Part shown: positions 15,836 through 45,608 of the stretch, one piece after another
Layout: each line of letters starts with the position of its first letter
How positions within the stretch are numbered: the first letter of the stretch is position 1
The notes under the pieces: model-generated
What the model was told of the DNA's origin: nothing
What the model saw: the letters and a program-made list of their open reading frames with translations, nothing else
Databases searched by the model: none
Assembly (NCBI GenBank): GCA_044372565.1
Contig: JBILRP010000003.1
Coordinates: 5,471-69,470, forward strand
Direction of reading: 5' to 3'
Length of the DNA: 64,000 nt
Source: Bacilli bacterium
Lineage (GTDB): Bacteria; Bacillota_I; Bacilli_A; RFN20; CAG-826
Program-made: the position numbers and the translations under genes

Positions 15836-15972
15836 TTGAAAACCTCCAGCTAATCTCGTATAGCACGTTAAGTTTACCAAAGACTAATGACTACTTCAAT
15901 AAAAATTACTCCCTTAATCTAAAAGGTTTGAAATAAGGTATAATTCTATCGATTTAAAGGTGGATAATCCCA

Positions 15973-21489: not shown

Positions 21490-21490
21490 T

Positions 21491-21522
21491 AACCCATATT
21501 CATTGATGGGTTTTTTTATTTT
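21491..21522 (+). terminator. rho-independent terminator after tRNA-Ser(GCT)
   Basis: AACCCAT-attcattg-ATGGGTT hairpin followed by TTTTTTTATTTT. Confidence 0.6.
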
Positions 21523-21565
21523 GAGAATAGGCGAAAAAGTTATAAAATTACAGATAACAACGATT

Positions 21566-26719: not shown

Positions 26720-26754
26720 AAAAACCCACTCTTCATGGTGGGTTTTTCTTTTAA
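26720..26754. terminator. bidirectional rho-independent terminator between eno (+) and the convergent minus-strand operon
   Basis: AAACCCAC-tcttcatg-GTGGGTTT hairpin flanked by A-run and T-run. Confidence 0.6.
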
Positions 26755-27437
26755 ATGTGTAACCAGCGTTGTAAGTACTGCCAGAATTTTGGTCTTAAGT
26801 AAGTTAATAATGCCGTCAAGGAAATCAATGAAGTAATTAAGGCAATCAACGACGGAACAAAAACAGATGATGCAAATAACCAAACCATCACGGAAAATTG
26901 CACTAATCCTACGATGGAGCTTACCAACATTTGAAAGAGAATGACATCGGTTTTTCTCATGATGGTTGCAAGAATAAAAAAGAGTAAATTGCTCGTTGAT
27001 ATGAGAATAGGTACCACATATTGTAGGGGCCATGCATCGAAGGTTTGTTGGTTGACAAACGCCAATAAAGTCGTAATGATCGATAAGCCAAATAACTGCC
27101 ATAAGATCACATATCCGATGCCATTCCGGTTATAAATCGATTTGTAAATGAGAATCCACATATAAAAAACAATAAATGTCATCAGGAAAGTCGTTCCTAA
27201 TTCAGAGGCAATCAAGGCTAGATCAATGATCAATGTCAATAACAAGGCCAGTAACAAAGGAAAGGCAAAAAAAGCATGCATGATGGATGCGGTTTGTTTT
27301 TCGATTTGATTGTAATTCGGAGTTGGATAAAGGATTTGTTTATCATTTTCTGATACTTGATGGACAAAACCACCGCAAACAGGGCAGTGGGTCAAACTGC
27401 TGTCGACTTGAATATGACATCGTTGACATGTTTCCAC
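26751..27437 (-). CDS. polytopic membrane protein with an N-terminal zinc-ribbon (CxxC...CxxC)
   Basis: METCQRCHIQVDSSLTHCPVCGG followed by 5-6 hydrophobic helices; start abuts the stop of the upstream gene. Confidence 0.5.
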   Translation of the reverse strand: METCQRCHIQVDSSLTHCPVCGGFVHQVSENDKQILYPTPNYNQIEKQTASIMHAFFAFPLLLALLLTLIIDLALIASELGTTFLMTFIVFYMWILIYKSIYNRNGIGYVILWQLFGLSIITTLLAFVNQQTFDAWPLQYVVPILISTSNLLFFILATIMRKTDVILFQMLVSSIVGLVQFSVMVWLFASSVFVPSLIALITSLISLTALLTYLRPKFWQYLQRWLHI

Positions 27438-28721
27438 TTACTGACCCTCCTCCCATCGATTGCCGCTGGCTTTGACGTTCACGTTTAAATCCTTAACAAG
27501 CATGTTGACAAATGATTGGATAAAGGAGCGATCATCGATGATTCGAGAAAAGGTGATGACCAGTTGGTCTAAAAAAGTTGCCATCGCAACATTGATGGGT
27601 AAGATTGGGGTTGCACAGAGCGTAAAATCAAAATGATCAATAAATGATTGTGTGGATTGTGGCATCTCAATTTTACCTAAGTTAGACATGACAATACTTA
27701 ACGCGGTTTCACCAACACGATTAAACACAAATTTAATGACCCATCGCTTAATAAACAAGGGAATAAATCTTAATAAAAGCATTCGTTCAACCTTTAAATT
27801 TGCTCTGATTTGTGGGGCAAGAATCTCAAGTTGCTGACCCTTTTTTAGCTGTTGATTCACAACGTCTAAGACTTCTTGAAATGTAGAATCTGGTTTAAAA
27901 AAACCACCAATATTAATCGTCATCACAAAGTTTTTCATCGTTTTTGAGGGTATGTACTTACGCATATCCACCGGGATAGAAAGAATGATTTTCTTTCTCT
28001 TTTTAGGATGAAGTGCTTCTTGTTTTTGAATCAATATCAAAATTAACATCGTTGCAAATAAACCTGTGATTGTGGTTTGCTTTGCCTTAGCAACGGCAAT
28101 CAATTCTTTTGTGTTTAAGTGCAAATGGGTAAGGTAATGACCAGTATGCTCGAAATACGTTCCTTTTAAATGAAAAGCATTTTCTGTTGGCAAAAAAATG
28201 CCATTGCCTTTGGTCACTTTCGTTGCAAAACTATCTTCAAGTTCCGCATTCGTTACCTGATCATTGGCATCAAATATAATGCCTTCTGCATCCACGACAT
28301 GACCTTTTTCTCTTAAATAAGCTAAGGTTAAGGTTTTTAAAAACTCCATGCCACCCCGTCCATCGGTAATTGCATGAAATACTTCAATAGAAATTCGTTG
28401 GCGGTGATAATAAATTTCAATCAAATGTTTCAAACGGTCATTGGGTCTAGGGTTCGTACCAAACATGTTTGGATCAGGCTGGACTTTAAAAAGTTTAGAT
28501 TGGTTTTCTAAATAGTACCAAAACAATCCTTTTCGTAAACGCGTATTAAAATTTGGAAAACGAAACAATGTTTTTTCTGCAGCAAGTTGAAGAACAACCG
28601 GATCAATGGTTTCCTTGAGAACAATACTTAAGCGAAAATAAGAGGCTCTTAATTTTCCGGTAATGATAGGGAAAAGTTTACCGGCATTGTCGATTTTAAA
28701 CCACTGCGTTGTTCGATTCAT
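27438..28721 (-). CDS. condensation/CAT-fold acyltransferase (HxxxDG motif; WS/DGAT or alcohol-acyltransferase-like)
   Basis: 427 aa; VFHAITDGRGGMEF contains the HxxxDG catalytic signature of the condensation-domain / chloramphenicol-acetyltransferase-like superfamily. Confidence 0.55.
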   Translation of the reverse strand: MNRTTQWFKIDNAGKLFPIITGKLRASYFRLSIVLKETIDPVVLQLAAEKTLFRFPNFNTRLRKGLFWYYLENQSKLFKVQPDPNMFGTNPRPNDRLKHLIEIYYHRQRISIEVFHAITDGRGGMEFLKTLTLAYLREKGHVVDAEGIIFDANDQVTNAELEDSFATKVTKGNGIFLPTENAFHLKGTYFEHTGHYLTHLHLNTKELIAVAKAKQTTITGLFATMLILILIQKQEALHPKKRKKIILSIPVDMRKYIPSKTMKNFVMTINIGGFFKPDSTFQEVLDVVNQQLKKGQQLEILAPQIRANLKVERMLLLRFIPLFIKRWVIKFVFNRVGETALSIVMSNLGKIEMPQSTQSFIDHFDFTLCATPILPINVAMATFLDQLVITFSRIIDDRSFIQSFVNMLVKDLNVNVKASGNRWEEGQ

Positions 28722-29485: not shown

Positions 29486-29559
29486 TGGAGCAGGTGACGG
29501 GAATCGAACCCGCGTAATTAGCTTGGAAGGCTAATGTTCTACCACTGAACTACACCTGC
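29486..29559 (-). tRNA. tRNA-Gly (anticodon TCC)
   Basis: GCAGGTG/CACCTGC acceptor, D-arm GTTCAGTGGTAGAAC, anticodon stem TTAGC/GCTAA with loop CTTCCAA, GGGTTCGATTCCC T-arm, encoded CCA. Confidence 0.85.
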
Positions 29560-29619: not shown

Positions 29620-29931
29620 CTAGGATTTTAGTAAGTTTTCTAAAGCGGTTAAAGCATGAAATCCAGGCTTTTTATAAGTTTGTTTTCCTGCAGAAAAAAC
29701 CATCATGGTAGGGATAGACATAATCCCATGGGCTTCTGCTAAATCTACATTTTGGTCAACATTGACTTTTAAAATGATTGAATCCGGTTGTTTTTTAGAA
29801 AAATCATCAAGCACCGGTGCTTGCATTTTGCATGGCCCACACCAATCCGCATAAAAATCGACAATCACTTTTCCTTTTGAAGTTTGAATAAGATCATTAA
29901 ATTCCTTCACGTTGGTAATATTTTTGATCAT
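29620..29931 (-). CDS. trxA: thioredoxin
   Basis: 103 aa; WCGPCK active site. Confidence 0.9.
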   Translation of the reverse strand: MIKNITNVKEFNDLIQTSKGKVIVDFYADWCGPCKMQAPVLDDFSKKQPDSIILKVNVDQNVDLAEAHGIMSIPTMMVFSAGKQTYKKPGFHALTALENLLKS

Positions 29932-29953: not shown

Positions 29954-30799
29954 TTATTGAATCCATGTGGTCAATAAGTAAATTCCATATAATCCAATGA
30001 AATGAAGTGGATAGTAAGCATAACTAAATAATTGAAACCAGCTAGGTGGGTTGCCCTTGTCACCTCGATAATAATAAATGAAGTAACTGGCAAACAGCGC
30101 ATAGGTTTGAGCTCCGACAAAGCGGGTTAGATAGTTTGCTAATAAATCACCACTTGGCATTCCTTGACTTACTAGTAACTCCATTATATACCAAACCACA
30201 TGCATCATTATTAATGCAACACTGGTTAAAACATAGTTATGTTCAGCACCATGATTCAACCGTAAGAGCGTCGTCAATTTTTGCTGAATTCCTTTTGAAT
30301 AAGTAAAGAAGAAGACCAACATCATGATTAGTCCATAAAGACCATAATCTGCTCTTAAAAAGTTAGGTACGCTTGACTCAAAACTTGTCCATATGACATA
30401 GGAAATGGGTAAGAATCCAAGCGGCTTGATTAACCATGATTTTTCTTTCAATAAAATCATCGCCAAGGCGGCCAAGGATAAGTCGACAAATATGTTTCCT
30501 GCCAAAGCATTGATGTTTATTTGTTCTAAGACAAACATCGATAGACCAATCAACAATGCCATCGCAAAAAGTTTTGAAAAGTAACGGTAACGATGTTTGG
30601 TTCGATAAATTCCTTCAGCAATCATAAACGCAAACAAAGGAAATGCAAGTCTACCAATTAATCTAGAAATAATATATAACGTATCCATCGTGTTGTTATT
30701 CGTGTAAGGATTAAGAACCAGCACGCCAAAATGATCGATGGTCATCGTGATTAAAGCAATCCATTTTAATTGATAAGCAGTGAAATTTCTTCTCATCAT
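29954..30799 (-). CDS. TraX-family polytopic membrane protein
   Basis: LKWIALITMTIDHFG resembles the conserved TraX N-terminal motif (..IAM.ID HIG); 281 aa with about 8 TM helices. Confidence 0.6.
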   Translation of the reverse strand: MMRRNFTAYQLKWIALITMTIDHFGVLVLNPYTNNNTMDTLYIISRLIGRLAFPLFAFMIAEGIYRTKHRYRYFSKLFAMALLIGLSMFVLEQININALAGNIFVDLSLAALAMILLKEKSWLIKPLGFLPISYVIWTSFESSVPNFLRADYGLYGLIMMLVFFFTYSKGIQQKLTTLLRLNHGAEHNYVLTSVALIMMHVVWYIMELLVSQGMPSGDLLANYLTRFVGAQTYALFASYFIYYYRGDKGNPPSWFQLFSYAYYPLHFIGLYGIYLLTTWIQ

Positions 30800-30801
30800 G
30801 G

Positions 30802-31560
30802 TTAAAGACTGGAACTCAATTCAGGGGATATTAGAATACTCATGACAGACAAAAGGTTATTAAAGATATGCGTTGCCATGGCCACCTGAAGTCCGAAGCG
30901 ATCGTAGAGAAAACAAAACCAAGCTCCCGCGACTAAATAGATAGGTAAATTGAATAACTCATTGGTTAAATTCGTCGCGGTAAAATCAAAATGGATGAAT
31001 CCAAAAATAGTCAATGTCGCAAGATAGGCAACCCATTTGTTTCGTCCTTTTAAATACTGAAACAATCCTAAGCGATAAGTCCATTCTTCCACGATGGGGC
31101 CAAGAAACCCAAACGTAATTAATGAAATGATGGGAGAATCTTTGACGAGCCTCACGATGGCGGCTTGATTTTGGTTATCTTCCAGTTGAATGCCTAAGGC
31201 ATCATAAAGAGTTACCAAACCAAATGATGTGAAAAGGATTGCAAAGGTAAAAGGCAAACCTAACCACCATTGTCCTGAAAATAACGCAGGAATGAAGGTG
31301 GTTCGTAAATAAGGCCAAATTAAGATAATACCGATCATGAACAAGGTTACATAGGTCAGTGAATTTATATAACTAAAAAATAGATCACTATTTAAGAAAA
31401 TGTCAGTTTCTTCAAGGGGTAGAATAAAAGGGACGATGAATCCAAAAAGAGCACTAAAAAAAATAGCGAAAACAATTAGCCCAATCCAACCCAAAAAAAA
31501 CAACAATAATTGCTTGTTTTTATCGATTTGAAAGGGTTGTCGTTGTATATCCAAATTCAT
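30802..31560 (-). CDS. CPBP-family intramembrane glutamic endopeptidase (CAAX protease/Abi-like)
   Basis: Motifs EEWTYRLG (EExxxR), FGFIHF (FxxxH), HIFNN (HxxxN); start set at the ATG of MNLDIQ... (the longer ORF to 31668 would overlap the divergent giant gene). Confidence 0.7.
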   Translation of the reverse strand: MNLDIQRQPFQIDKNKQLLLFFLGWIGLIVFAIFFSALFGFIVPFILPLEETDIFLNSDLFFSYINSLTYVTLFMIGIILIWPYLRTTFIPALFSGQWWLGLPFTFAILFTSFGLVTLYDALGIQLEDNQNQAAIVRLVKDSPIISLITFGFLGPIVEEWTYRLGLFQYLKGRNKWVAYLATLTIFGFIHFDFTATNLTNELFNLPIYLVAGAWFCFLYDRFGLQVAMATHIFNNLLSVMSILISPELSSSL

Positions 31561-31580
31561 GTATAAATATATGTTTTTAT

Positions 31581-31603
31581 TATGATAGCATATCAATATC
31601 ATA
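31581..31603. promoter_or_regulatory. inverted repeat TATGATA-n9-TATCATA in the divergent intergenic region (candidate operator)
   Basis: Seen directly between the CPBP protease start and the giant gene's RBS. Confidence 0.3.
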
Positions 31604-31639
31604 TAAAATGATAGATGAAACCCCATTAGGAGGTTATCA

Positions 31640-34600
31640 ATGTTAACAACGTTAGGTTTTGGAATCAATCCAACACAAATTGCCCAATATTTAGATTACG
31701 CATTGTATGGCATTTTCGGCATGGTCGCTTTAGGGTTTGTTTTTGGTTTCATTCGTGGGGTTTGGAGAGAAGGATTTCGCTTAATATTTGTTGGTGGATT
31801 GGTGGTCTTTTCTGTCTTATTCACCCGTCAGTTGGTCGATCTCTTCATGGATTTTGATGTTTCCTCGCTAGCTGCAAGCGCAGGATTTGCTTCCATTTCC
31901 TTAAACATAAATGCATCCCCAATCATTGTCTCGGTGACGACCCCATACGAAACAATTTATAATTTACTTGAACAATCCTTACTCGCTTTTGGCTTCTTTA
32001 TTACCCCCGCGATTTCTGACTTGGTCATTGGATTAACCCTAGTCATCTTAAGATATGTGCTCTTTATCGTCTTAGCAATCATCATCTTTTTATTGGGTGA
32101 ATCCGTCGCTGCGATTTTATACTTTCTCCCTTTTCGGTTTTTTATTCCCCGTCATTTTCGGAAAAAAGTTAAGTTGCGATTACTTGGTGGCGCTGCTGGG
32201 GCCTTGAAAATGGTGCTTGTCTTAACGATGTTTTTATCACCCTTTACATCCTTAATCAATTCTGTAACAACATCGTTTAGAGACTTCGATGAGCAATATG
32301 GTGACCAAATTGATGCCGAGCTTTATGACGAAATCATGTCGTTTGTTGACACATATAATGATTCAACGTTTGCCCAAACACTTTTTTCTTGGTCATTAAC
32401 TGATGATGGGTTGAGTATTGATTCTGCGTTGATGGATTTTGTTTCCGGTGAGGATTTAGATGCCTATCGATTGACGCTAGCAAATGAATTGGGATCGGTG
32501 GTTGATATTGCTGCGACCTTGTTAGGAAGTGGTGCTATAGACAGTACCTTTACCACCATTGACACATCGTTATTACTTTCAGAAGATTTAGTGACCAATC
32601 TAATCACCTCATTAACTGGGTCGGTTTTAATCATGAAGATTTTACCCATTGCCGTAACAATAGGATTAAATCTTGATGAAGTCTCCAGTTACTTAGATCC
32701 TTCATTAATTGATCTTGATGATTTAGTTTGGGAAGATGAACTTGGCTATCTAGGTGATATTTTTAATGGAGTGATTCGCTCTGGCATATTAACGCCGATT
32801 CTAAATGGTAATACCGATACTGCGTTTTTAATTGATACGATTTTCTCACCAACATCACAACCAGAAATCAATCAAATTTTAGAAACGATTGACGAGTCGC
32901 CTTTTCTATCTCAAGTAATTCCTGCTGTATTGTTCAAGCTTGTAGAAGATGAACTTGCTGCCGGTGGTCCAGTCGGTGGCGTTGGGCTATCTACATTCTT
33001 ACCAACGGAATGGGAAGAATACGAAACCATTCAGTTTGGATCAGAATTAAGTTTAATTTATGACTTGGTGTATGAATTAACATCGGAAGTGGATGGACTA
33101 TTTGACCTCCTTCTTCCAGCTCAAGATTCTCCACAGCCTCTGGGTCGTAAACAAGTGGATGAACCAGCAACCCCATCCATTATTGATTTATTAAGTGAGC
33201 ATTTAGATTTGTTTGTTGAAGTTTTAATCGGTGAAGTCAATACTGTTGGTGAACCAATCAATAACAATCCAACCACAGGTAAATCCATCAATCGCCAATC
33301 GTTGTTAGATTCTGATTTGATCATGAATGCGCTTCCTGCAATTGTGGAAAATTTATTATTACCAACTTTAACCAGTGTTGCCGGAGAAAGCTTTGATGAT
33401 ACGAGTTTAAATCAATTAATTGAAGATTTTAACAGCGGAAATTTAGGAGATGTTCGACTTGATTATAAAGGTGAATTCGGTGGGATTTTTAGTATTCTCG
33501 ACGCTGTCATTAGCAATGAAACGTTGATTGGTTTGCTTGAACCTGAACCAGGTGAGACGCTAGACATTTTAGGCTTAATCGAAGATGGTGAATTTCGCAA
33601 AGGATTAAAAACTGATTTGATTCCTGCGCTTGATCGATCCCAAATCATTTTTGCTGTCGTTCCAGGCATTTTAGAATCAACACTCACGGGTGCAGGATTA
33701 GATGATTTCCTCGGATTACTTTCCCTTACCAGTGCCGATTTGAATTTTGAATTTACAAGCTTATCTAGAGAGTTGATTATTGTCATCGATATGTTAGGTT
33801 ATGCCTTTAATGTGATTGACGCAAGTAGTGATTTATTGAATCAATTCCCGACCATCGCGTATGACCTTATTGGCTTATTGGACAACATTTACTTGTCTGA
33901 TATCATCAACAAAAATCCAATCACGAATAACAAAACCACGAATTATAATCAAATGATCAAAGGGATTTTCACCCTTGTTGAAGGTATCGGCATTGATGAA
34001 GACGACATCGATGTTGGCTTTAATCAGATTGTTCCAGTTGGGCAAGAAAATGGATGGACAACAACCTTTGTTGACACCAACAACAATGACAAACTTGATG
34101 CGCTTGACACGGTATCCTATGCCGGGGAAAATTATCACCTAGTCAACTTTTTAAAGACCGCTTTAGAATCTGGATTATTGGATATTTCTGGGGATATCTT
34201 TGCCGCCCTTGATGACTTAACTACGGGCAGTGAAGATATTGATGATCCTAACGTGGCAACCCTATATAAAATATTTGCCTATGCCGATCGCTCTGAGATT
34301 ATTGCCGCTTCCTTTGGGGGTATTCTTGATAGTTTGTTTGGGGCAACAGGTGGATTGCTGGATGCAGATTTAGGAACCTCATTTAGAAATGTGACGTCTT
34401 GGACAGAAGAAGGCTCTAATTTGATGTACTTAGTCAAACAGTTGACTAATTTTGCTGATGGTTTAGAGAACATTGATTTCCTCAATTCAGATGTATCGAT
34501 GATTGAAGAACTTTTACAAGGATTAGCTGCATCACAAATCTTTATCAAACCTAACGGAGACTATGTTTTTCCAGATTTCTTGTTAGACCAACTTACCGGT

Positions 34601-37600
34601 ATTGCCGATCTTGCAACCTATTTTGAAGATCCTTCTCCTTATCAATCGACTTGGGATGACAATCCTGCAGATAATTTTAATATTGTTACTGAAGATTTTT
34701 ACGCCATCAGTAATCAAGTGTCAACCCGAGCCAATTGGTATGGTGTGAAAACGATGATGACCGATGGAGATGGTGATCCGATTCTTAATGTGAATGGAGA
34801 TTTCCAATATGAATTTGTTGGTGGTGAATTAGAAAATATTGTTGGATTTATCTCAGAATTACAATCCGTTTCGATTGCTGATCTGACTTCTGGTATTGGA
34901 TTAAGCGGTGAAACAATTTCTGATGTCTTGCTCGCACTTAATAATGCATCCTCATTACGGGTGCTTGTGTATAACGTCTATGATTCAATCTTTGGTGGTT
35001 CGAATTTCGATATAGGTTCATTGTCTTTATCAGATACAAATACCTTTGTATTCTTAGAATTAAATCAAGCTGGTCGAGCCCAACAAATTCAAGCAACCGC
35101 AGATTTGTTAGATACGATTAGCGACATGGGACTTGATGGCGGTGGTTCATTTGACATTGCTGGTTTTGATGAATCTACCATTCTTGTCGTGGGTGACTTA
35201 TTGACCATTCTTCATGATGCAGCTTTATTTAACTCGTTCAAATTAGGTCGTTCTCGTCTTAATGGTGACTTAACCGTCTTTGAACAAGCCTATCAATTTT
35301 TATTGACGACGGCAACGTTGGATACCTTTATTTATGACGGACTGAATGAGGCGCAAAGAGAGGTCGCACTATATCAGGATATGACATCTCTCGATAATAG
35401 TTTTGGAACCAATACACCCGACGATTGGGATGGACTCGATGGCGAAATTCAACGCTTTGTGGATATCATGGTGTCGTTTGTTAACACTGGTATCGACTTC
35501 ACGAACTTTGGTGGCGATGCGATTGGTGATTTATTGAATACAGAAGTTGGTTTGGGTAAAGTGGAAGATCTATTGCTTTCCATGAATGAATCGATAATTA
35601 TTTCACCGGCCATTGGCAACTTGTTTGGCAATGTATTTGGCTCAGATGCCTTTGATATCGGCGGCCTAACCATGAGTGATGCCAACACCAATTACTTCAA
35701 CCAACAACCACTCAAATCAGTGCGAGCAACAGAAATTAGTTTAATTCTCGATATTTATTGGGATATTAACAATATCGGTATCACCGGTGGTGCTGCTTTT
35801 TCCGCCGATCTTATTGACCCAGTGTTGTTTGATGCCTTGCTCAACAAAATGCATGATTCCAAAGTCTTTAATTCATTTAAAACTGGAAATAGTTATGTAT
35901 TGGATGATTTAACCATCTTTGAACAAACCGTGAGAATGATCTTAAATTCATCTACCCTTGATACGTTTATCTATGATGAACCGATTAGTGCGAATCGACT
36001 GCTTTTACTTCAAGATGACATTGCTGCCTTAAATAATAATTTTGGGATTGGATTAGTCGATGATGATTGGACTGGTGTCAATGGTGAAATCAATAACATT
36101 ATTGGGATTCTTGAGTCCTTTAAAGAAACCGATATCGATTTCACGAACTTTGGTGGGGATGCGATTGGCGACTTATTGAATACAGAAGTTGGTTTGAATA
36201 AAGTTGAAAATTTATTATTATCGATGAATGATTCAACGTTAGTTGCTCCTTCCATTGGTAACCTTTTTGGTAACATCTTTGATTCTGACTCATTCAACAT
36301 CAATGGCTTAACGATGAGTGATGCTAATACGCCTTTCTTTAACGAAGAAGCCAATCGTGAAACACGAGGAGTGGAAATTAGTTTAATCTTAGATATTTAC
36401 ACGGACATCAATTCAATTGGCTTGTCTGGTGGCGCTGCTTTTTCATCCGATTTAATCAATCCGATTCTCTTTGATGATCTTCTGACGAAAATGCATTCAT
36501 CGAATGTCTTTAATTCCTTTAAACAAGGAAACAGTTATGTCAGTGAAGATTTAACCATCTTTGAACAAACCGTGAGAATGATTTTAAATACATCCACCAT
36601 TGACACCTTTGTATACGACGGCGAAATTAATTCTGCTCGATTAGGCTTTCTACAAGAGGACATGAGTGTAATGGTCAACAACTTTGGAAATCTCAGTATC
36701 ACCGATGATTGGGCTGGTGAAACAGGCGAAATTTCTAAGATTGTTGCAATCTTATCAGCGTTTAAAAATCTCGATCTTGATTTTAGTTCATTCTCTGGAC
36801 CGGGGTCTTCAGAAAGTTTAGCAAGTTTAATTGATACCCCTGCTGGTTTAACAAAAATTGAAAACTTGCTTTTGGCGATGAACGATTCGCTCATCGTTTA
36901 TCCCGCCATTCCTAATTTATTTTCTAACATGTTAGCCGGTGGGGATTTTTCTTCGATTGGTGTGAATTTCGCGATGGCAAACTTTCGTTATCGTGGGAAT
37001 AGAAATAATCCGATTAGTCCAGTAGTTGATGACATTTATCTTCCTTATGAACCGACAGAAATATCGGCAATTTTATCGATTTTCTCAGACGTGAAAATAG
37101 TGGGTAATCGAAGTTACGGATCGATTAAGGATTTATCTGATGAAGGCATTGATGACATGGCCAACTTGGTCACGGATTTATATGAGTCTCAAGTGTTTCA
37201 CCAAACTGGACCAGCGACGGCATTGGGCACAGATTTAACCATCTTTGAACAAATGATGGCGAAGATGTTTAAAGACACCGGAATGGCTGCGCTTGCTTAT
37301 GATGCCAATCGTTTGGCGGATGCGCCGTTTGGTAATGCCAATGCCAAAGCGAACCACTTGGTGTTAAACTTCTCCACATTATTCCCTGTCAACAACACCA
37401 CGCATTTAACCGATGGGTGGTTGAATGATGGGGCTCAAGTTGGGGAAATAACAGCCTTCTTTAGAATTTTTAAAGAATTTAAAGTTGCTTTGCCAAATCT
37501 AGAAAGCGCATCCTCGATTGATCCAGGCGCATTATCACCCACGTCAATTGGGCGAATCATGGCGGCCTTAAATTATTCATCCTTAACCTCCGATGCCGTT

Positions 37601-38857
37601 AAAAAGATGGTTCAAGACGCCTTTGAAAGTATTGAGTTTGGTACCTACACAGAAGATAACGAAACCTATGAATTGACCCCAGTTGAGTTTTTACTTGAAG
37701 ATATCGATGTGATGGATTATAACGTCCTCCCTGGAACTGCCACCCGAGTTGGGTTGATTCGCGGTTTATTGGTTGGTTTTTACGATGAAGGGGATGAAGC
37801 ATACATTTCCATTAGTGGCGGCTTTAATGTCACAAGTTTCTTAAATGATGGAGGATCTCTCTTCCCCTTGGTTAATTTGCTCTCAAAATCAAACATATTT
37901 GGTAATCATGCAACCAATATTCTTAACCCATCTGCAAGTCAAACAGGACTGACTCCTTTTAATGTCACGACCCCAGGTAGTTTTAAAACCCGGGCCCTCA
38001 CATTCTATAATTTTTTAAATACAGCGAATGTTGGAAAGTATTTTAATTATCTAACCACCTTACCAACTGATAAAGAAGCCAAAGTGATTCGGGTTGAAAA
38101 TATTTTTGCTGGCGATTTTGATGAACCATTTGAAGCCAATCGATTAGACTCATTTATTGCGACGATTTCTGGATTTACTAATGTTTCTAATGCAGCCAAC
38201 CTCGATGAATTTAGCGCGGAAATGCGTGCGTTAATTGAATTAACGTATACGGCAACCGGTCACACGATTACCGATCGCGCCTTCATGGTTTCTGAGTTAT
38301 CGGCAGGATTCTTTACTGATATTTTTAAGAATGAATATGTTTTGGTTGAAGATACTGAAGCTCCATACTTTGGTGACGCCAGTAATCCTTTAAAACAATT
38401 AAATTTCTATGATGCTAATTTTGATTTAACCAATGATTTCCAACTCTTAAATCCAATTGAGGCAGATGGCTTTGAAGGGGCTTTGGAATTTTTATCAGCG
38501 ATTAAAGGAATTTCAAACCCACCAAGTTCAACCGATGTGACTGCCATGGAATCAGCCTTGATAAAGATGGGTTCACGAGCCAACCTCCTTGTTCCTGGAG
38601 GGCCTTACCCTACTGCGACTGACTTCACGACTTGGTCTGATGCAAAAATTAGTCAAATTGCTCAGTTATTTTACGGTGCTAGAATTGTGACTAATACAGG
38701 TTTTGACGGTTTGTCGGCGTTGATTGTCACCGTGACGACCCCAAACCCATTTACCAATCCAAGCGGCATTCTAACTATTCTAAGTCAACAACCATATGAA
38801 GATGATTTTGTCTTTGAAATTGAGGCGGAAAAAATCTCTTACGCTTTTGGTGCCTAA
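31640..38857 (+). CDS. giant (2405 aa) membrane-anchored acidic repeat protein: N-terminal CvpA-like 5-TM domain plus a very long Cys-free, D/E/L/T-rich body with tandem ~214-aa repeats
   Basis: Uninterrupted 7.2-kb ORF with a strong AGGAGG RBS 7 nt upstream. N-terminus FGFIRGVWREGFRLIFVGGL resembles the CvpA (colicin V production) family. No cysteine found in the translation. All antisense ORFs inside are short. Confidence 0.8.
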   Translation: MLTTLGFGINPTQIAQYLDYALYGIFGMVALGFVFGFIRGVWREGFRLIFVGGLVVFSVLFTRQLVDLFMDFDVSSLAASAGFASISLNINASPIIVSVTTPYETIYNLLEQSLLAFGFFITPAISDLVIGLTLVILRYVLFIVLAIIIFLLGESVAAILYFLPFRFFIPRHFRKKVKLRLLGGAAGALKMVLVLTMFLSPFTSLINSVTTSFRDFDEQYGDQIDAELYDEIMSFVDTYNDSTFAQTLFSWSLTDDGLSIDSALMDFVSGEDLDAYRLTLANELGSVVDIAATLLGSGAIDSTFTTIDTSLLLSEDLVTNLITSLTGSVLIMKILPIAVTIGLNLDEVSSYLDPSLIDLDDLVWEDELGYLGDIFNGVIRSGILTPILNGNTDTAFLIDTIFSPTSQPEINQILETIDESPFLSQVIPAVLFKLVEDELAAGGPVGGVGLSTFLPTEWEEYETIQFGSELSLIYDLVYELTSEVDGLFDLLLPAQDSPQPLGRKQVDEPATPSIIDLLSEHLDLFVEVLIGEVNTVGEPINNNPTTGKSINRQSLLDSDLIMNALPAIVENLLLPTLTSVAGESFDDTSLNQLIEDFNSGNLGDVRLDYKGEFGGIFSILDAVISNETLIGLLEPEPGETLDILGLIEDGEFRKGLKTDLIPALDRSQIIFAVVPGILESTLTGAGLDDFLGLLSLTSADLNFEFTSLSRELIIVIDMLGYAFNVIDASSDLLNQFPTIAYDLIGLLDNIYLSDIINKNPITNNKTTNYNQMIKGIFTLVEGIGIDEDDIDVGFNQIVPVGQENGWTTTFVDTNNNDKLDALDTVSYAGENYHLVNFLKTALESGLLDISGDIFAALDDLTTGSEDIDDPNVATLYKIFAYADRSEIIAASFGGILDSLFGATGGLLDADLGTSFRNVTSWTEEGSNLMYLVKQLTNFADGLENIDFLNSDVSMIEELLQGLAASQIFIKPNGDYVFPDFLLDQLTGIADLATYFEDPSPYQSTWDDNPADNFNIVTEDFYAISNQVSTRANWYGVKTMMTDGDGDPILNVNGDFQYEFVGGELENIVGFISELQSVSIADLTSGIGLSGETISDVLLALNNASSLRVLVYNVYDSIFGGSNFDIGSLSLSDTNTFVFLELNQAGRAQQIQATADLLDTISDMGLDGGGSFDIAGFDESTILVVGDLLTILHDAALFNSFKLGRSRLNGDLTVFEQAYQFLLTTATLDTFIYDGLNEAQREVALYQDMTSLDNSFGTNTPDDWDGLDGEIQRFVDIMVSFVNTGIDFTNFGGDAIGDLLNTEVGLGKVEDLLLSMNESIIISPAIGNLFGNVFGSDAFDIGGLTMSDANTNYFNQQPLKSVRATEISLILDIYWDINNIGITGGAAFSADLIDPVLFDALLNKMHDSKVFNSFKTGNSYVLDDLTIFEQTVRMILNSSTLDTFIYDEPISANRLLLLQDDIAALNNNFGIGLVDDDWTGVNGEINNIIGILESFKETDIDFTNFGGDAIGDLLNTEVGLNKVENLLLSMNDSTLVAPSIGNLFGNIFDSDSFNINGLTMSDANTPFFNEEANRETRGVEISLILDIYTDINSIGLSGGAAFSSDLINPILFDDLLTKMHSSNVFNSFKQGNSYVSEDLTIFEQTVRMILNTSTIDTFVYDGEINSARLGFLQEDMSVMVNNFGNLSITDDWAGETGEISKIVAILSAFKNLDLDFSSFSGPGSSESLASLIDTPAGLTKIENLLLAMNDSLIVYPAIPNLFSNMLAGGDFSSIGVNFAMANFRYRGNRNNPISPVVDDIYLPYEPTEISAILSIFSDVKIVGNRSYGSIKDLSDEGIDDMANLVTDLYESQVFHQTGPATALGTDLTIFEQMMAKMFKDTGMAALAYDANRLADAPFGNANAKANHLVLNFSTLFPVNNTTHLTDGWLNDGAQVGEITAFFRIFKEFKVALPNLESASSIDPGALSPTSIGRIMAALNYSSLTSDAVKKMVQDAFESIEFGTYTEDNETYELTPVEFLLEDIDVMDYNVLPGTATRVGLIRGLLVGFYDEGDEAYISISGGFNVTSFLNDGGSLFPLVNLLSKSNIFGNHATNILNPSASQTGLTPFNVTTPGSFKTRALTFYNFLNTANVGKYFNYLTTLPTDKEAKVIRVENIFAGDFDEPFEANRLDSFIATISGFTNVSNAANLDEFSAEMRALIELTYTATGHTITDRAFMVSELSAGFFTDIFKNEYVLVEDTEAPYFGDASNPLKQLNFYDANFDLTNDFQLLNPIEADGFEGALEFLSAIKGISNPPSSTDVTAMESALIKMGSRANLLVPGGPYPTATDFTTWSDAKISQIAQLFYGARIVTNTGFDGLSALIVTVTTPNPFTNPSGILTILSQQPYEDDFVFEIEAEKISYAFGA
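34980..37510 (+). repeat. in-frame tandem repeat array (about 4 units of ~642 nt / 214 aa) inside the giant gene
   Basis: Recurring protein blocks: FTNFGGDAIGDLLNTEVGL, GLTMSDANT, EISLILDIY, NSFK.GNSYV, DLTIFEQTVRMILN.ST.DTF.YD. Unit phase is 642 nt (35495 vs 36137). Units 2 and 3 share DNA stretches identical over 30 nt (35911-35942 vs 36551-36582) and a nearly identical ~60-nt stretch (35495- vs 36137-). Confidence 0.75.
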
Positions 38858-38862
38858 AGGCG

Positions 38863-39618
38863 ATGAAAACCTTTGAAGTTAATCCGCGCTCAACCTTGAA
38901 AAAAACGATTGCGATCATGTCTAGTAAAGGTGGAGTTGGCAAAAGCACAGTCACTGCTTTAATTGCAATCCATTTGACTCGACTAGGAAAAAGAGTTGGC
39001 ATTTTAGATGCCGATATCATTGGCCCAACCATCTCAAAGTTATTTGCCATCACAGATAAAATCGTTGGCCAAGATGGTTTGATCTTACCGGTGGTCACCT
39101 CATTAGGGATTAAGTTAATCTCTTCACAGCTTTTATTATCAACACAAGATGAACCAATTGTTTGGCGTTCTCCACTCGTCCTTGATTTGATTCGGCAATT
39201 TTATGTCGATGTGATTTGGGGAGAACTCGACTATTTATTGATTGATTTACCACCTGGAACAGGGGATGTCGCAATGACGGTGTTAGAAAGTCTTCATGTC
39301 GATGAAATCATCATGGTGACCACCCCACAAGAAATTGTTCAAAGTATTGTCAGTAAAGGCATCCAAATGGCCGATATTGTCAAAAAACCAATCAAAGGCA
39401 TCATCGAAAACTACAGTTATTTTGTCTGTGATCAATGTGATAAGAAGCATTCATTTTTTCAAACATCATCACACATGCCAATCTGGGAAAAATATAAGAT
39501 TCCTCTGTTGGCAACATTACCCCTGCAATCAGATTTACCTAGTTTGATTGATAATGGTAAAATTGAACAAGTATCAATGATTGACATTGAAGCAATGCTT
39601 CAACATTGGAAGGATTGA
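38863..39618 (+). CDS. Mrp/ApbC/NBP35-family P-loop ATPase (Fe-S cluster carrier-like)
   Basis: IAIMSSKGGVGKST deviant Walker A; conserved CxxC (CDQC); begins 6 nt after the giant gene's stop. Confidence 0.85.
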   Translation: MKTFEVNPRSTLKKTIAIMSSKGGVGKSTVTALIAIHLTRLGKRVGILDADIIGPTISKLFAITDKIVGQDGLILPVVTSLGIKLISSQLLLSTQDEPIVWRSPLVLDLIRQFYVDVIWGELDYLLIDLPPGTGDVAMTVLESLHVDEIIMVTTPQEIVQSIVSKGIQMADIVKKPIKGIIENYSYFVCDQCDKKHSFFQTSSHMPIWEKYKIPLLATLPLQSDLPSLIDNGKIEQVSMIDIEAMLQHWKD

Positions 39619-39620
39619 TT

Positions 39621-40865
39621 ATGGATTCAAAAGAATACATCACAAGAAGAGAAAAATTATTTCAGCACATCATGGAGCAATCCATTGTTATTTTATATTC
39701 AGGTGGGCTTATCAAATCAAGTGCGGATGCTACGTTCCCATTTGTTGTCAATAAAAACTTCTTTTACTTAACAGGTATTGAGCAAGAAAATAGTATTTTG
39801 GTGATGTTAAAAACACCAACCACCGTCAAAACGTATTTGTTTATTGATGAAATTGATGAAGCGAAAACGCGATGGGTTGGTAAGAAACTTGATGTTGAAA
39901 CTGCCACCAAGACCAGTGGCGTTCATGATATTTTCATGATGTCCATGGTTGATACGAGACTTAAAGAAATGTTATTGGATACCAATGGATACGGCAAAGT
40001 GACTCACGCCTACCTCGACTTGGAAAAGAATAACGTGATTGATGGTCATTTAAAAACAACGGAACGTGTTGCTGAAGACTTAAAGAAACAATACCCAGCA
40101 TTAACGATTGAAAATGCATATCCAATCTTAACGAAACTCCGCATGATTAAATCGCCAAAAGAAGTTGAGGCCATTCGTGTTGCCATCAAAGGAACTGCAT
40201 ATGGGTTACAAAGTATTCGTAAACACTTAAAGCCTGGATTGTTCGAACATCAAATCGAAGGTTTATTCCAATACGCGATTAAAGAGTATGGGAATATGGG
40301 TTTGGCGTTTGAAACCATTATTGCCAGTGGTAAAAATGCCATCATTCTTCACTACCCAAACCCCAAAGATAAAATCGCAGATGGTGCATTGGTCCTTTGT
40401 GACCTTGGCGCGACCAATGGTCAGTACCGAGGTGATATTACCAGGACGTATCCAGCGAACCGAAAATTTAATCCGTTACAAAAACAAATCTATGAAACCG
40501 TCTTAAAAGCTAATCAATTGATTATTCAAATGGCAAAACCAGGATTAAAAATTGTTGATTTACAACAAGCGTGCTTAAAGTTTTTGGCAGATGCTGCTGT
40601 CAAAGAGGGTTGGATTAAAACCCCAGAAGACATAGGTAAAATTTACTATCACAACGTCGGTCACCATTTAGGATTAGATACCCACGATCCAATCGGGCGT
40701 GATATTCCTTTAGAACCAGGATGTGTCATCACGGTTGAACCAGGCTTATACATCAAAGAATTAGGGATTGGTATTCGCATTGAAGATAACATTTTAATCA
40801 CGGAAAAAGGTTGTGAAAATCTCTCCGCTGACATTCCTAAAACCATCGAAGAAATCGAAAATTAA
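39621..40865 (+). CDS. pepP: Xaa-Pro aminopeptidase (M24B)
   Basis: HNVGHHLGLDTHD and ExGxY...E metal-ligand motifs of M24B; GGAAGGA RBS before the ATG at 39621. Confidence 0.85.
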   Translation: MDSKEYITRREKLFQHIMEQSIVILYSGGLIKSSADATFPFVVNKNFFYLTGIEQENSILVMLKTPTTVKTYLFIDEIDEAKTRWVGKKLDVETATKTSGVHDIFMMSMVDTRLKEMLLDTNGYGKVTHAYLDLEKNNVIDGHLKTTERVAEDLKKQYPALTIENAYPILTKLRMIKSPKEVEAIRVAIKGTAYGLQSIRKHLKPGLFEHQIEGLFQYAIKEYGNMGLAFETIIASGKNAIILHYPNPKDKIADGALVLCDLGATNGQYRGDITRTYPANRKFNPLQKQIYETVLKANQLIIQMAKPGLKIVDLQQACLKFLADAAVKEGWIKTPEDIGKIYYHNVGHHLGLDTHDPIGRDIPLEPGCVITVEPGLYIKELGIGIRIEDNILITEKGCENLSADIPKTIEEIEN

Positions 40866-42607: not shown

Positions 42608-43114
42608 TTAATTGACATCGGATGAGACGGAAACATAATCGACCATCAAGGCTCGGAAACGTTGAATATTATAAAAAGCTTGATGAGAGGGAATCCGATG
42701 AATTCTTTCCTCACCATTCAAAATAAACAGCGTTGGAGTTGAAAAACCTTCAGGAAAATAATTTGGAAATTCCTCTTGAAACATCGATAAATGATGCAAA
42801 TGCTCAAGGGTATCTAAATAGTAAACCATCGCTTTTGATGTTGCAATCCAATCTAAGAATACTGGTTGAAATTGTAAGCAACTTGAACAAGTCGGATTTC
42901 CTACGTATAACAAATAAGGATCATTGTCATTAGATAATTCAATCAAATCATCCAAATCAATACGGCTGGTCAATGCCTCCATTGAAATAGTGGTTGGTGG
43001 GGATGTGAGCAGAAGTGGATTCATCGCAATAATGGTTGCATTAGCATTGATTTGGCAACCAACAAGGACAGTGGATAAGACCAGTAAAATAGTTCTTCGT
43101 AATGGTAAATTCAT
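42608..43114 (-). CDS. thioredoxin-fold lipoprotein (CxxC), paralog of the 15047-15835 protein
   Basis: Lipobox LVGC after a signal peptide; YVGNPTCSSCLQFQP CxxC and TPTLFILNG PT-turn motif. Confidence 0.55.
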   Translation of the reverse strand: MNLPLRRTILLVLSTVLVGCQINANATIIAMNPLLLTSPPTTISMEALTSRIDLDDLIELSNDNDPYLLYVGNPTCSSCLQFQPVFLDWIATSKAMVYYLDTLEHLHHLSMFQEEFPNYFPEGFSTPTLFILNGEERIHRIPSHQAFYNIQRFRALMVDYVSVSSDVN

Positions 43115-45537: not shown

Positions 45538-45608
45538 AAAAAAAGTATAGCATAAACGATGCTTTGATTGACTTTTAGCTCGATTCATATGATAATTTTT
45601 CAAAGCTT

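What the first reader, a model, noticed from the sequence alone, without database searches (positions are those of the whole stretch)
29954..39618. Giant CvpA-anchored acidic repeat protein locus with linked Mrp-ATPase, CPBP protease and TraX-like genes
A single 7.2-kb gene encodes a 2405-aa protein. Its first ~200 aa look like a CvpA-family 5-TM membrane module (FGFIRGVWREGFRL...). The remaining ~2200 aa are cysteine-free, very poor in Lys/Arg, rich in Asp/Glu/Leu/Thr/Phe, and contain about four tandem 214-aa repeats. I cannot place this body architecture in any family I know. An Mrp/ApbC-type P-loop ATPase gene starts 6 nt after its stop, suggesting co-transcription. The gene is divergently paired (80-nt intergenic with an inverted repeat) with a CPBP intramembrane protease and a TraX-like membrane protein. 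CvpA, CPBP proteases and TraX are all associated with secretion, processing or immunity of surface and bacteriocin-like proteins. The cluster could therefore be an envelope, surface-layer or adhesion module specific to this lineage.
Basis: partly seen in the sequence, partly recalled or inferred. Interest (0 to 1): 0.8.

Follow-up and report, generated by a model that had tools for sequence, protein, structure and literature searches.

The report
Giant acidic membrane-anchored repeat protein
A real 2405-residue gene in an uncultured freshwater Bacilli genome belongs to a large unnamed family of giant, very acidic, all-helical repeat proteins. They are probably displayed on the cell surface from a CvpA-like membrane anchor. 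The gene always sits back-to-back with a membrane protease, a TraX-like protein and a thioredoxin.

Summary
Window 31640-38857 (+) is an intact 2405-aa ORF. It has no Cys, 4.3% K+R and a body net charge of -236. Its N-terminal region is multi-pass and it carries four clear tandem ~214-aa modules.

Profile comparison adds a fifth, degenerate module at aa 875-1091. Module number varies from 0 to 6 among relatives.

The family is large: 704 clusters at 50% identity, nearly all of the listed hits 1500-3000 aa. All those with a source name come from uncultured Bacilli MAGs.

The CvpA assignment is only weakly supported. Colicin_V is the one recurring Pfam hit, but it stays below threshold (best 24.4 bits against a cut-off of 29.3).

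Charge distribution, CvpA-type topology and composition all point to an extracytoplasmic body.

In every relative checked where upstream flank is available, Trx<-TraX<-CPBP lies divergently next to the giant gene. This holds even where everything downstream differs. Mrp linkage is not conserved, and Mrp looks like an ordinary Fe-S carrier.

Verdict: a new, uncharacterised family of giant surface or envelope proteins, probably functionally coupled to CPBP and TraX. Function is inferred, not shown.

The parts
29620..29931 (-). Thioredoxin (103 aa, WCGPC), last gene of the divergent CPBP-TraX-Trx operon
   Evidence: Pfam Thioredoxin E = 4.6e-25; sequence. Present in this position in all relatives with enough flank.
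29954..30799 (-). TraX-family polytopic membrane protein (281 aa)
   Evidence: Pfam TraX E = 2e-24, 87 bits against a cut-off of 25; PHROG transfer protein E = 1.7e-10. Conserved neighbour.
30802..31560 (-). CPBP (Rce1-like) glutamic intramembrane protease, 252 aa from ATG 31560 (the ORF extends to TTG 31668)
   Evidence: Pfam Rce1-like E = 5.4e-15. Catalytic motifs EEWTYR, FGFIH and HIFNN are present. Directly divergent from the giant gene in every relative with upstream flank.
31561..31639 (.). 79-nt divergent intergenic region. It contains the conserved block TATGATAGCAyAyCAAwATCATATAAAAT (palindromic arms about 31576-31587 / 31597-31608) and the AGGAGG RBS of the giant gene.
   Evidence: The arms and the TATAAAAT are conserved while the spacer varies in L006, L007, L010 and L015. 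Probably a promoter and/or operator; function not tested.
31640..38857 (+). Giant gene, 2405 aa
   Evidence: Full-length homologues at 98% to 24% identity. 704 representative clusters.
31640..32266 (+). aa 1-209: membrane anchor. TM1 (~20-39), cytoplasmic RGVWREGFR loop, TM2 (~41-60), acidic ~60-aa insert with a beta-hairpin, long helix 123-168, KR-rich loop RHFRKKVKLR, TM 181-207. CvpA-like.
   Evidence: Hydropathy; AF2 pLDDT 76; alignment A3. Colicin_V is recurrent but sub-threshold. hhalign to E. coli CvpA covers TM1-loop-TM2 only.
32267..34261 (+). aa 210-874: non-repetitive (or too diverged) acidic body region, conserved across the whole family
   Evidence: Profile A4 matches this region full-length in most of the 150 listed hits. 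No significant relation to the modules.
34262..34912 (+). aa 875-1091: degenerate fifth copy of the module
   Evidence: hhalign against modules B and C: probability 88% and 93%, E = 3e-6 and 3e-7, colinear over 163-169 columns. Iterated HMM hit 806-1041.
34913..37546 (+). aa 1092-1969: four tandem ~214-aa all-alpha modules A, B, C and D (boundaries 1092, 1304, 1518, 1736, 1970)
   Evidence: probability 97-100%. AF2 of B+C gives pLDDT 86, pTM 0.83, about 8 helices per module. Copy number is 0-6 in relatives.
37547..38854 (+). aa 1970-2405: C-terminal region. There is no C-terminal TM segment and no LPXTG motif. It ends in the conserved ...FVFEIEAEKISYAFGA.
   Evidence: Weak colinear similarity of 1970-2207 to module C (E = 3e-3; iterated HMM 5e-8). 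No PDB relatives.
38863..39618 (+). Mrp/ApbC-type Fe-S carrier ATPase (251 aa, CDQC motif). Probably co-transcribed with the giant gene but not a conserved partner.
   Evidence: Pfam PF10609 E = 8e-78; NCBIfam MrpORP/ApbC below the equivalog cut-offs; sequence. Absent from this position in L029, L031-L033, L035, L036 and L038.
39606..40865 (+). Xaa-Pro aminopeptidase (M24), overlaps the Mrp stop. A common but not universal downstream neighbour.
   Evidence: Pfam Peptidase_M24 E = 6.5e-53 and AMP_N. Synteny. Absent in L035, L037 and L038.

Best explanation
The gene encodes a giant envelope protein. A four-helix, CvpA-like N-terminal domain holds it in the cytoplasmic membrane. The last helix is preceded by the strongly basic loop RHFRKKVKLR and acts as a signal-anchor. 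As a result, the ~2200-residue body lies outside the cell.

The body is a polyanionic (pI about 4), all-alpha chain of helical-bundle modules. At least five are ~215-aa units, and their number is gained and lost between relatives. It would therefore form a long, length-variable, negatively charged rod or coat on the surface.

The gene is a single conserved locus kept across a whole lineage of uncultured small-genome Bacilli. That suggests a core envelope function, such as a protective, spacing or cation-binding layer, possibly also adhesion, rather than an accessory adhesin.

The divergently transcribed CPBP protease, TraX-like membrane protein and thioredoxin share its control region. CPBP and TraX are its most likely maturation or maintenance partners, for example by membrane-proximal cleavage and/or acyl modification. 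Mrp and PepP are housekeeping passengers in the same transcript.

Shown: the gene is real and conserved; its composition; the module architecture; the confident all-alpha model; the absence of known relatives; the invariant CPBP-TraX-Trx pairing.
Inferred: the topology; surface display; any functional coupling; the physiological role.
For: - Intact ORF, with full-length homologues down to 24% identity. There are 704 representative clusters, nearly all of the listed hits 1500-3000 aa.
- Topology. The loops RGVWREGFR (+2) and FRFFIPRHFRKKVKLR (+7) are basic. The 61-122 insert is acidic (net -4), as is the stretch after the last TM. AF2 gives one continuous helix for 123-168, which yields 4 passes with N-out and C-out. 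CvpA is predicted to be 4-pass with a periplasmic C-terminus of variable length (bioRxiv 10.1101/2020.09.25.314492).
- CvpA link. Colicin_V is the only recurring Pfam family on the anchor: E = 3.2e-5, 1e-3 and 9.9e-4 in three members, always colinear.
- Composition. There are 0 Cys where about 16 are expected (P about 1.6e-7). K, R and His are depleted. The three other predicted exported or membrane-anchored proteins in the window are also K/R-poor and acidic. The named gut and rumen relatives carry 8-16 Cys. A Cys-free, K/R-poor subgroup makes up 54 of 173 members. Body pI is 4.05-4.65 in all 173 members.
- Modules. hhalign gives 97-100% among A-D and 88-93% for the fifth copy. Copy number is 0-6. 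AF2 gives pLDDT 86 and pTM 0.83, all-alpha.
- Partners. Trx<-TraX<-CPBP lies divergent to the giant gene in all loci with upstream flank. This includes L035, where the whole downstream context is different. The CPBP catalytic motifs are intact. The palindromic block in the shared spacer is conserved.
Against: - There is no experimental or proteomic evidence of expression or location.
- No topology predictor was available. The 46-residue hydrophobic helix 123-168 could instead be two TM helices. A further hydrophobic stretch at aa 321-345 (hydropathy 1.94) could be a TM. Either would reverse the side on which the body lies.
- The CvpA relation never reaches Pfam's threshold. Profile-profile probability is only 15-22%, over 33-36 columns.
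- Conserved gene order could partly be inheritance within one lineage. trxA and the downstream genes are housekeeping genes.
- Translocating a 2200-residue domain through Sec from an internal signal-anchor is demanding.
- The cell-wall status of the organism is unknown.
Confidence: 0.5

Rival explanations
1. The body is cytoplasmic. On this reading the protein is a membrane-tethered, acidic helical scaffold on the inner face of the membrane, for example a cytoskeletal, division or nucleoid-organising element of a small-genome Bacilli lineage.
For: - The gene is embedded among cytoplasmic housekeeping genes and is co-transcribed with Mrp and PepP.
- The helix 123-168 could be two TM helices, and aa 321-345 is hydrophobic. 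Either would flip the topology.
Against: - With 123-168 as two passes, the strongly basic loop (+7) would face outward and the acidic insert inward. That contradicts the positive-inside rule.
- Zero Cys in 2405 residues (P about 1.6e-7), with His, Lys and Arg depleted, matches the other exported proteins of this genome rather than its cytoplasmic ones.
- The hydrophobic stretch 318-336 aligns, weakly (E = 0.048), with the first helix pair of module B. AF2 models that pair as soluble, with pLDDT about 90.
Confidence: 0.15
2. The protein is essentially a CvpA-type envelope-stress or transport protein whose variable periplasmic tail has become enormous. The anchor is the functional part and the body is a sensor or partner-binding ectodomain. 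The CPBP/TraX linkage reflects only shared regulation.
For: - CvpA homologues are reported to vary most in the length of their periplasmic C-terminus, which seems to be needed for function.
- The anchor and the first ~200 aa of the body are the best-conserved parts at long range.
- The most divergent members share only the first 350-490 aa.
Against: - CvpA homology itself is unproven.
- Conservation is nearly uniform along all 2405 residues within the clade. The acidic modular body is kept in 173 of 173 members. That argues the body carries the function.
Confidence: 0.15
3. The protein is an ordinary giant adhesin. Its neighbours are linked to it only by inherited gene order in one lineage, with no functional module.
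For: - Copy-number variation of the repeats is typical of adhesins.
- The neighbours include obvious housekeeping genes: trxA, Mrp, PepP, GlpK and Ham1.
- All hits with a source name come from one class, uncultured Bacilli.
Against: - The flanks beyond Trx and beyond the giant gene are repeatedly reshuffled, yet the CPBP-TraX-Trx/giant junction is never broken.
- The gene keeps one fixed locus, from freshwater to gut members at 20-25% identity. That is unlike accessory adhesins.
- No known adhesin, wall-anchor or S-layer domain is present.
Confidence: 0.15

Closest known systems
CvpA / Colicin V production protein family (Pfam PF02674), including fusion proteins such as mycobacterial MarP (Rv3671c)
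   Same: - Short N-tail with Asp just before TM1.
- An RG(F/V)xRE-type cytoplasmic loop between TM1 and TM2.
- Four passes, with the C-terminal part outside. CvpA is predicted to be 4-pass with a variable periplasmic C-terminus.
- MarP has 4 N-terminal TM helices followed by a periplasmic domain (PMC4992679). That the MarP anchor is CvpA-family is my own recollection and was not tested here.
- Colicin_V is the only recurring Pfam hit on the anchor.
   Different: - Scores stay below Pfam's gathering threshold. The window protein scores 9.5 bits and the best family member 24.4, against 29.3.
- hhalign to E. coli and enterobacterial CvpA aligns only TM1-loop-TM2.
- There is a ~60-aa extracytoplasmic insert between TM2 and TM3.
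- The tail is about 2200 aa, compared with about 40 aa in E. coli CvpA.
Giant helical-bundle surface proteins of staphylococci (Ebh / Embp)
   Same: - Very large, acidic proteins of Bacilli.
- Built from many tandem all-alpha bundle repeats. Embp's repeat units each contain two alpha-helical bundles (PMC7587433 abstract).
- Membrane-anchored and displayed on the cell surface.
- The rod-like overall shape of Ebh/Embp and variable repeat number are from my own knowledge, not from a paper read here.
   Different: - No sequence or Pfam relation; there are no FIVAR, GA or DUF1542 hits.
- The module here is about 214 aa, with about 8 helices.
- The anchor is N-terminal and polytopic rather than an N-terminal YSIRK signal plus a C-terminal TM (own knowledge).
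- The gene is a conserved single locus across a lineage, not a pathogen adhesin.
CPBP/Abi intramembrane proteases acting on surface or exported proteins (e.g. S. aureus SpdA/B/C, MroQ; CTERM-sorting proteases such as MrtJ)
   Same: - The neighbour is a bona fide CPBP protease with an intact catalytic triad of motifs.
- It is genetically paired with a large exported substrate candidate.
- There is a weak NCBIfam hit to MrtJ (E = 0.005).
   Different: - The giant protein has no C-terminal sorting signal.
- No substrate relationship has been shown.
- The roles listed for the staphylococcal proteins are from my own knowledge.
TraX, the F-pilin N-acetylase
   Same: Clear Pfam TraX family member (87 bits). 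In the F system, TraX modifies a membrane-inserted structural protein after proteolytic processing (own knowledge). This suggests a cleave-and-acylate analogy with the adjacent protease.
   Different: There is no conjugation system here. This is a chromosomal housekeeping context. Activity and substrate are unknown.

Membership tests
CvpA / Colicin_V (PF02674) | Score at or above Pfam's gathering threshold (29.3 bits) | tested here: not met
   The window protein scores 9.5 bits, E = 1.3. The best family members score 24.4 bits (E = 3.2e-5), 19.5 bits (E = 1e-3) and E = 9.9e-4. It is the only recurring family, hit at E < 1 in 6 of 10 members and at E < 0.01 in 1 of 31 further members.
CvpA / Colicin_V (PF02674) | Profile-profile similarity to authentic CvpA across all four TM helices | tested here: inconclusive
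   hhalign of A3 against E. coli CvpA: P = 9.5e-4, probability 22%, 33 columns (the sequence was later checked against MG1655). A 179-member anchor profile against an enterobacterial CvpA profile: P = 1.7e-3, 36 columns, TM1-loop-TM2 only. The CvpA alignment lacked diversity, with all members at 79% identity or more.
CvpA / Colicin_V (PF02674) | Four-pass topology with an extracytoplasmic C-terminus and a basic RGxxRE loop after TM1 | tested here: met
   Sequence and alignment A3 and the AF2 helices. The positive-inside pattern is compatible with the published prediction for CvpA. The topology is inferred, not measured.
CPBP / Rce1-like glutamic protease (PF02517), for the neighbour gene | Pfam threshold reached, plus motifs EExxxR, FxxxH and HxxxN | tested here: met
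   55.9 bits against 22.4. EEWTYR, FGFIH and HIFNN are present.
TraX (PF05857), for the neighbour gene | Pfam threshold | tested here: met
   87.2 bits against 25.
Mrp/ApbC/NUBPL Fe-S carrier (PF10609), for the neighbour gene | Pfam threshold, deviant Walker A and CxxC motif | tested here: met
   261.7 bits. SSKGGVGKST and CDQC are present. The NCBIfam equivalog cut-offs for MrpORP and ApbC are not reached (269 against 450; 182 against 348), so it is filed at family level only.
Ebh/Embp-type giant adhesins | FIVAR / GA / DUF1542-type repeat domains | tested here: not met
   No Pfam or NCBIfam hit anywhere on the 2405 aa.
Wall-anchored or S-layer proteins of Firmicutes | SLH, CWB2 or LysM domains, or a C-terminal LPXTG sorting signal | tested here: not met
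   No such Pfam hits. The C-terminus ...FVFEIEAEKISYAFGA has no LPXTG motif and no hydrophobic tail.
Anti-phage defence systems / phage proteins | Match to PADLOC or PHROGs models | tested here: not met
   No hit for the giant protein or CPBP.

The most novel reading that the evidence does not exclude
The giant protein is the principal envelope scaffold of a wall-less or wall-reduced lineage of uncultured Bacilli. It would be a genome-core, polyanionic proteinaceous coat that takes over roles normally played by wall polymers such as teichoic acids: surface charge, cation buffering and spacing. It would be matured by a dedicated CPBP protease and TraX acyltransferase pair, analogous to cleave-and-acetylate maturation of F-pilin. 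Its length would be tuned by gain and loss of modules.
Probability: 0.15. Interest if true: 0.8.

Novelty: new variant of a known kind. Interest (0 to 1): 0.5.

Why it matters
If the inference is right, hundreds of uncultured freshwater and gut Bacilli lineages all devote their largest gene to one unnamed surface structure. That gene has a new helical module and an unusual polytopic anchor. It also has a fixed genetic partnership with a CPBP protease and a TraX-like protein, two very widespread membrane-protein families whose functions in Gram-positive bacteria are mostly unknown.

The locus therefore offers a concrete candidate substrate for both enzymes. It also gives a handle on the envelope biology of a lineage known only from metagenomes. 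In addition, it defines a family and module that current domain databases lack.

Tried and rejected
- TRF on the gene found no DNA-level tandem repeat. The repeats are visible only at protein level.
- A self-BLAST of the whole protein returned only the identity hit. Fragment BLAST was needed.
- The search for related loci with the 15-member alignment failed because it had no conserved stretch. It worked with 8 closer sequences.
- The search for homologous proteins with the anchor alignment returned only 5 fragments, probably because hydrophobic words swamped the index.
- The E. coli CvpA search returned only sequences at 79% identity or more among those listed. The CvpA profile was therefore shallow and the hhalign result weak.
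It was redone with permitted rows.
- 'The whole body is one array of about 10 modules' was seen by eye, as a recurring (L/M)NxSxxxxPAxxNLF-like motif every 215-245 aa. hhalign supports it only for aa 875-1969. It is suggestive for 1970-2207 and not significant for 210-874 or 2208-2405. The iterated HMM extension may be profile drift.
- Bacteriocin or immunity reading: rejected. There is no bacteriocin-like or toxin domain and no PADLOC hit.
- C-terminal sorting by the CPBP protease (MrtJ-like): rejected, because there is no C-terminal signal.
- Mrp as a dedicated partner: rejected on synteny and because it is a canonical Fe-S carrier.
- No small stand-alone CvpA paralogue was found in the window or in the loci fetched up to that point.
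- Literature searches found no description of this family.
Full report
**1. What is in the sequence**

Window 31640-38857 (+) is one uninterrupted ORF of 2405 codons. It has an ATG start nine bases after AGGAGG.

- no Cys
- K 2.2%, R 2.1%, H 0.5%
- D 8.6%, E 5.3%
- L, I and F abundant
- net charge of residues 211-2405 is -236

The other 57 ORFs of the window contain 0.65% Cys, 7.2% K and 2.9% H. Finding no Cys in 2405 residues therefore has a probability of about 1.6e-7 under the local background.

Fragment-against-whole BLASTP shows a tandem repeat with a period of about 214 aa between roughly aa 1060 and 2000. The central copies are 60-69% identical. An HMM built from the two central copies finds four units. 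At DNA level the copies are too diverged for Tandem Repeats Finder.

The neighbours are as stated:
- TraX family, 29954-30799 (-), 87 bits
- CPBP/Rce1-like protease, 30802-31560 (-), 56 bits
- Mrp/ApbC ATPase, 38863-39618 (+), 262 bits, with its ATG five bases after the giant gene's TAA and no terminator between
- an M24 Xaa-Pro aminopeptidase overlapping the Mrp stop

If CPBP starts at ATG 31560, the divergent spacer is 79 nt.

**2. The anchor**

Hydropathy and a family alignment, together with an AlphaFold2 model of aa 1-260 (pLDDT 76, pTM 0.63), give this order:
- a short uncharged N-tail ending in YLDY
- helix 11-39
- a tight basic turn, RGVWREGFR
- helix 41-60
- an acidic ~60-residue insert with short helices and a beta-hairpin (61-122)
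- one continuous 46-residue hydrophobic helix (123-168)
- the very basic loop FRFFIPRHFRKKVKLR
- helix 180-220, whose first ~25 residues are hydrophobic

By the positive-inside rule, the two basic loops are cytoplasmic. This gives four passes, with the N-terminus outside and the C-terminus outside. The last pass, a basic n-region followed by a hydrophobic h-region, looks like an uncleaved signal-anchor that would direct export of everything downstream. This topology is inferred; no topology predictor was available.

Is the anchor CvpA?
- The window protein scores only 9.5 bits on Pfam Colicin_V (E = 1.3).
- Colicin_V is nevertheless the one family that keeps reappearing on the same region in other family members. 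It was hit at E < 1 in 6 of 10 members, with best values E = 3.2e-5 (24.4 bits, residues 24-204 against model positions 4-124 of 144) and E = 1e-3. One of 31 further members reached E = 9.9e-4.
- All of these are below the gathering score of 29.3.
- Profile-profile comparison with E. coli CvpA aligns only TM1-loop-TM2. The sequence was verified from MG1655. Results were P about 1e-3 and probability 15-22%. The CvpA profile I could assemble was shallow.
- MarP shows that a four-TM N-terminal anchor can carry a periplasmic domain (PMC4992679).

I therefore treat the anchor as CvpA-like, with roughly 0.7 probability of true remote homology. Family membership is not demonstrated.

**3. The body**

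No Pfam, NCBIfam, PADLOC or PHROGs model matches it. Profile searches of PDB sequences also find nothing.

Profile-profile comparison of segments cut from a 13-sequence alignment shows:
- Modules A-D (aa 1092-1969) are mutually homologous, at 97-100% probability.
- aa 875-1091 is a fifth, degenerate copy: 88-93% probability, E = 3e-6 to 3e-7, colinear.
- aa 1970-2207 is only suggestive (E = 3e-3).
- aa 210-874 and 2208-2405 show nothing significant.

AlphaFold2 on modules B+C, with a 24-row alignment of module pairs, gave a confident model (pLDDT 86, pTM 0.83). It is all-alpha, with about eight helices per module and two conserved long loops. These carry the family-wide motifs DLT(V/I)FEQ and W...GEI. 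The high pTM for two modules suggests a fixed inter-module geometry, that is, a rod rather than beads on a string.

**4. The family**

A word-indexed search found 47 clusters at 90% identity (98% to 24% identity to the query). All were unnamed or 'hypothetical protein', from 'Bacilli/Bacillota bacterium' MAGs.

A profile of the first 1080 residues, read against 1.84 billion representatives, found 704 proteins at E <= 1e-3 and 231 at <= 1e-30. Nearly all of the 150 listed were 1500-3000 aa. Most matched from the anchor through about 1000 residues of body.

GTDB representative genomes carrying it are freshwater MAGs (Lake Mendota, La Plata, Lac Pavin, rivers). A few are evidently mislabelled gut bins. 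Other members come from rumen or gut MAGs.

The module HMM finds 0-6 copies per protein. Protein lengths step by about 214 aa, for example 1963, 2192, 2405 and about 2640.

The body is acidic in every member: pI 4.05-4.65 in 173 of 173. The Cys-free, K/R-poor state is confined to a subgroup of 54 of 173. The remaining members have a median of 11 Cys. Of the members with a source name, the freshwater ones are Cys-free and the rumen or gut ones carry 8-16 Cys.

Exclusion of Cys in the freshwater members and tolerance of it in the gut and rumen ones is what one would expect of an extracytoplasmic protein in oxic versus anoxic habitats. This is an inference. Sample origin is known for only a few members.

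Within the clade, conservation is nearly uniform along the whole length.

**5. Gene neighbourhood**

I compared 30 loci with the window's neighbour proteins by tblastn. I also read called-gene tables for thirteen members of decreasing similarity and scanned L029's neighbour ORFs against Pfam.

In every locus with upstream flank, the order is Trx <- TraX <- CPBP, divergent from the giant gene. L031, which is cut about 1.4 kb upstream, shows CPBP and a truncated gene that matches TraX but not Trx.

The flanks outside this block differ. On the Trx side they include tRNA-Gly/Ham1, ABC transporters, an endonuclease, aminoacyl-tRNA synthetase genes and MMPL/CmpB.

Downstream, the commonest neighbour is a YigZ/IMPACT-family gene, followed by PepP and GlpK. 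YigZ is missing in the window's own clade. Mrp is present in some lineages, before or after YigZ. It is absent from this position in L029, L031-L033, L035, L036 and L038.

In L035 the giant protein shares only its first ~480 residues with the query profile, and nothing downstream is shared. The downstream genes there are a polysaccharide deacetylase, an ABC transporter, MgtE and FeoB. Yet Trx-TraX-CPBP is still in place.

The durable unit is therefore [Trx-TraX-CPBP]<->[giant], not giant-Mrp. Mrp carries the deviant Walker A and CxxC motifs of a normal cytosolic Fe-S carrier.

The CPBP protease has all three catalytic motifs. In the shared spacer, the palindromic arms ATATGAT...ATCATAT and the adjacent TATAAAAT are conserved in relatives at 72-98% protein identity, while the bases between the arms vary. 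That fits a promoter with or without an operator. It was not tested further.

**6. Interpretation**

The best-supported reading is a membrane-anchored, exported, polyanionic helical rod of variable length. It is encoded at a fixed locus across a whole lineage, with a CPBP protease and a TraX-like protein as probable partners.

By analogy, and from my own knowledge, CPBP/Abi proteins affect surface-protein display in staphylococci. TraX acetylates F-pilin after its proteolytic processing. A cleave-and/or-acylate maturation step is therefore a reasonable but untested mechanism.

The closest functional analogues are the giant helical-bundle surface proteins Ebh and Embp (PMC7587433). No sequence or domain relation exists.

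The organism looks like a small-genome Bacilli lineage. The window is dense with housekeeping genes, and its PrkC-like kinase has no PASTA or TM region. Whether it has a wall is unknown. That matters for deciding between 'coat' and 'adhesin'.

**7. Rivals and limits**

A cytoplasmic scaffold remains possible if 123-168 is really two TM helices, or if 321-345 is a TM helix. The charge pattern, the composition and a weak alignment of 318-336 to a soluble module helix pair argue against this.

A second rival is a CvpA-type stress or transport protein with an overgrown tail. A third is an ordinary adhesin with merely inherited neighbours. Both are listed with what would refute them.

Nothing here shows expression, localisation, cleavage or binding.

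**8. Verdict**

This is an undescribed, widespread family. It is a new variant of the known kind 'giant modular helical surface protein', with a new module, an unusual polytopic anchor and a conserved enzyme partnership. Interest is moderate, at 0.5.

Noticed in passing
window 31576-31612 (and L006, L007, L010, L015 at about 9935-9975): The divergent spacer carries a conserved block TATGATAGCAyAyCAAwATCATATAAAAT. The palindromic arms and the -10-like TATAAAAT are conserved, while the bases between the arms vary. This looks like a shared promoter and possibly an operator for both the giant gene and the CPBP-TraX-Trx operon.
   Followed up: partly
L001, L003-L005, L029, L031-L033, L036-L038 (gene directly after the giant gene): A YigZ/IMPACT_N (UPF0029) gene follows the giant gene in most lineages. 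It often overlaps the giant gene's stop or lies within a few bases of it. It is missing from this position in the window's clade and in L035. Its relation to the giant protein is unexplained.
   Followed up: partly
window 51955-52860 (+): The PrkC-type Ser/Thr kinase in the prpC-prkC-rsgA-rpe cluster is only 301 aa. It has a kinase domain with no TM segment or PASTA repeats. This hints that the organism may lack a conventional peptidoglycan-sensing system or a wall.
   Followed up: no
P0001-P0192 (family members): The Cys-free and K/R-poor traits co-occur. The low-K/R group of 54 proteins has a median of 0 Cys, against a median of 11 Cys in the other 119. Among the few members with a known source, the Cys-free ones are freshwater and the Cys-containing ones are gut or rumen. 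This may be an oxic/anoxic signature of an extracellular protein.
   Followed up: partly
window 42608-43114 (-), 15047-15880 (-), 16954-17979 (-): Three other predicted exported or membrane-anchored proteins are also acidic and K/R-poor: a lipoprotein-like CxxC thioredoxin-fold protein with an LVGC lipobox, a TM-anchored CxxC protein, and a GDPD phosphodiesterase. This suggests a secretome-wide compositional bias in this organism.
   Followed up: no
window 26751-27437 (-) and 27438-28721 (-): Two adjacent ORFs (228 and 427 aa) lie between enolase and Ham1. They have no significant Pfam, NCBIfam, PADLOC or PHROGs hit. They are conserved only in the closest freshwater relatives (L006-L016, L023).
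   Followed up: no
window 18130-19929 (+), 21458-22693 (+), 23877-25334 (+), 44236-45603 (-): Four further sizeable ORFs (599, 411, 485 and 455 aa) had no Pfam hit at E <= 1e-5 in the concatenated scans. The 485-aa one is a polytopic membrane protein.
   Followed up: no
L006, L016, L017, L029, L030 (record titles): Several public MAG records that carry this locus are labelled Staphylococcus epidermidis, Staphylococcus sp., Alistipes shahii or Oscillospiraceae. The gene content and synteny instead match the uncultured Bacilli lineage. These are probably taxonomic mislabels or bin contamination.
   Followed up: no
window 29486-29559 (-): A tRNA-Gly(UCC) sits between Ham1 and the thioredoxin gene. 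It marks the outer edge of the conserved Trx-TraX-CPBP block in this genome. Three tRNA-Ser genes are scattered elsewhere in the window (3859, 17990, 21397).
   Followed up: no
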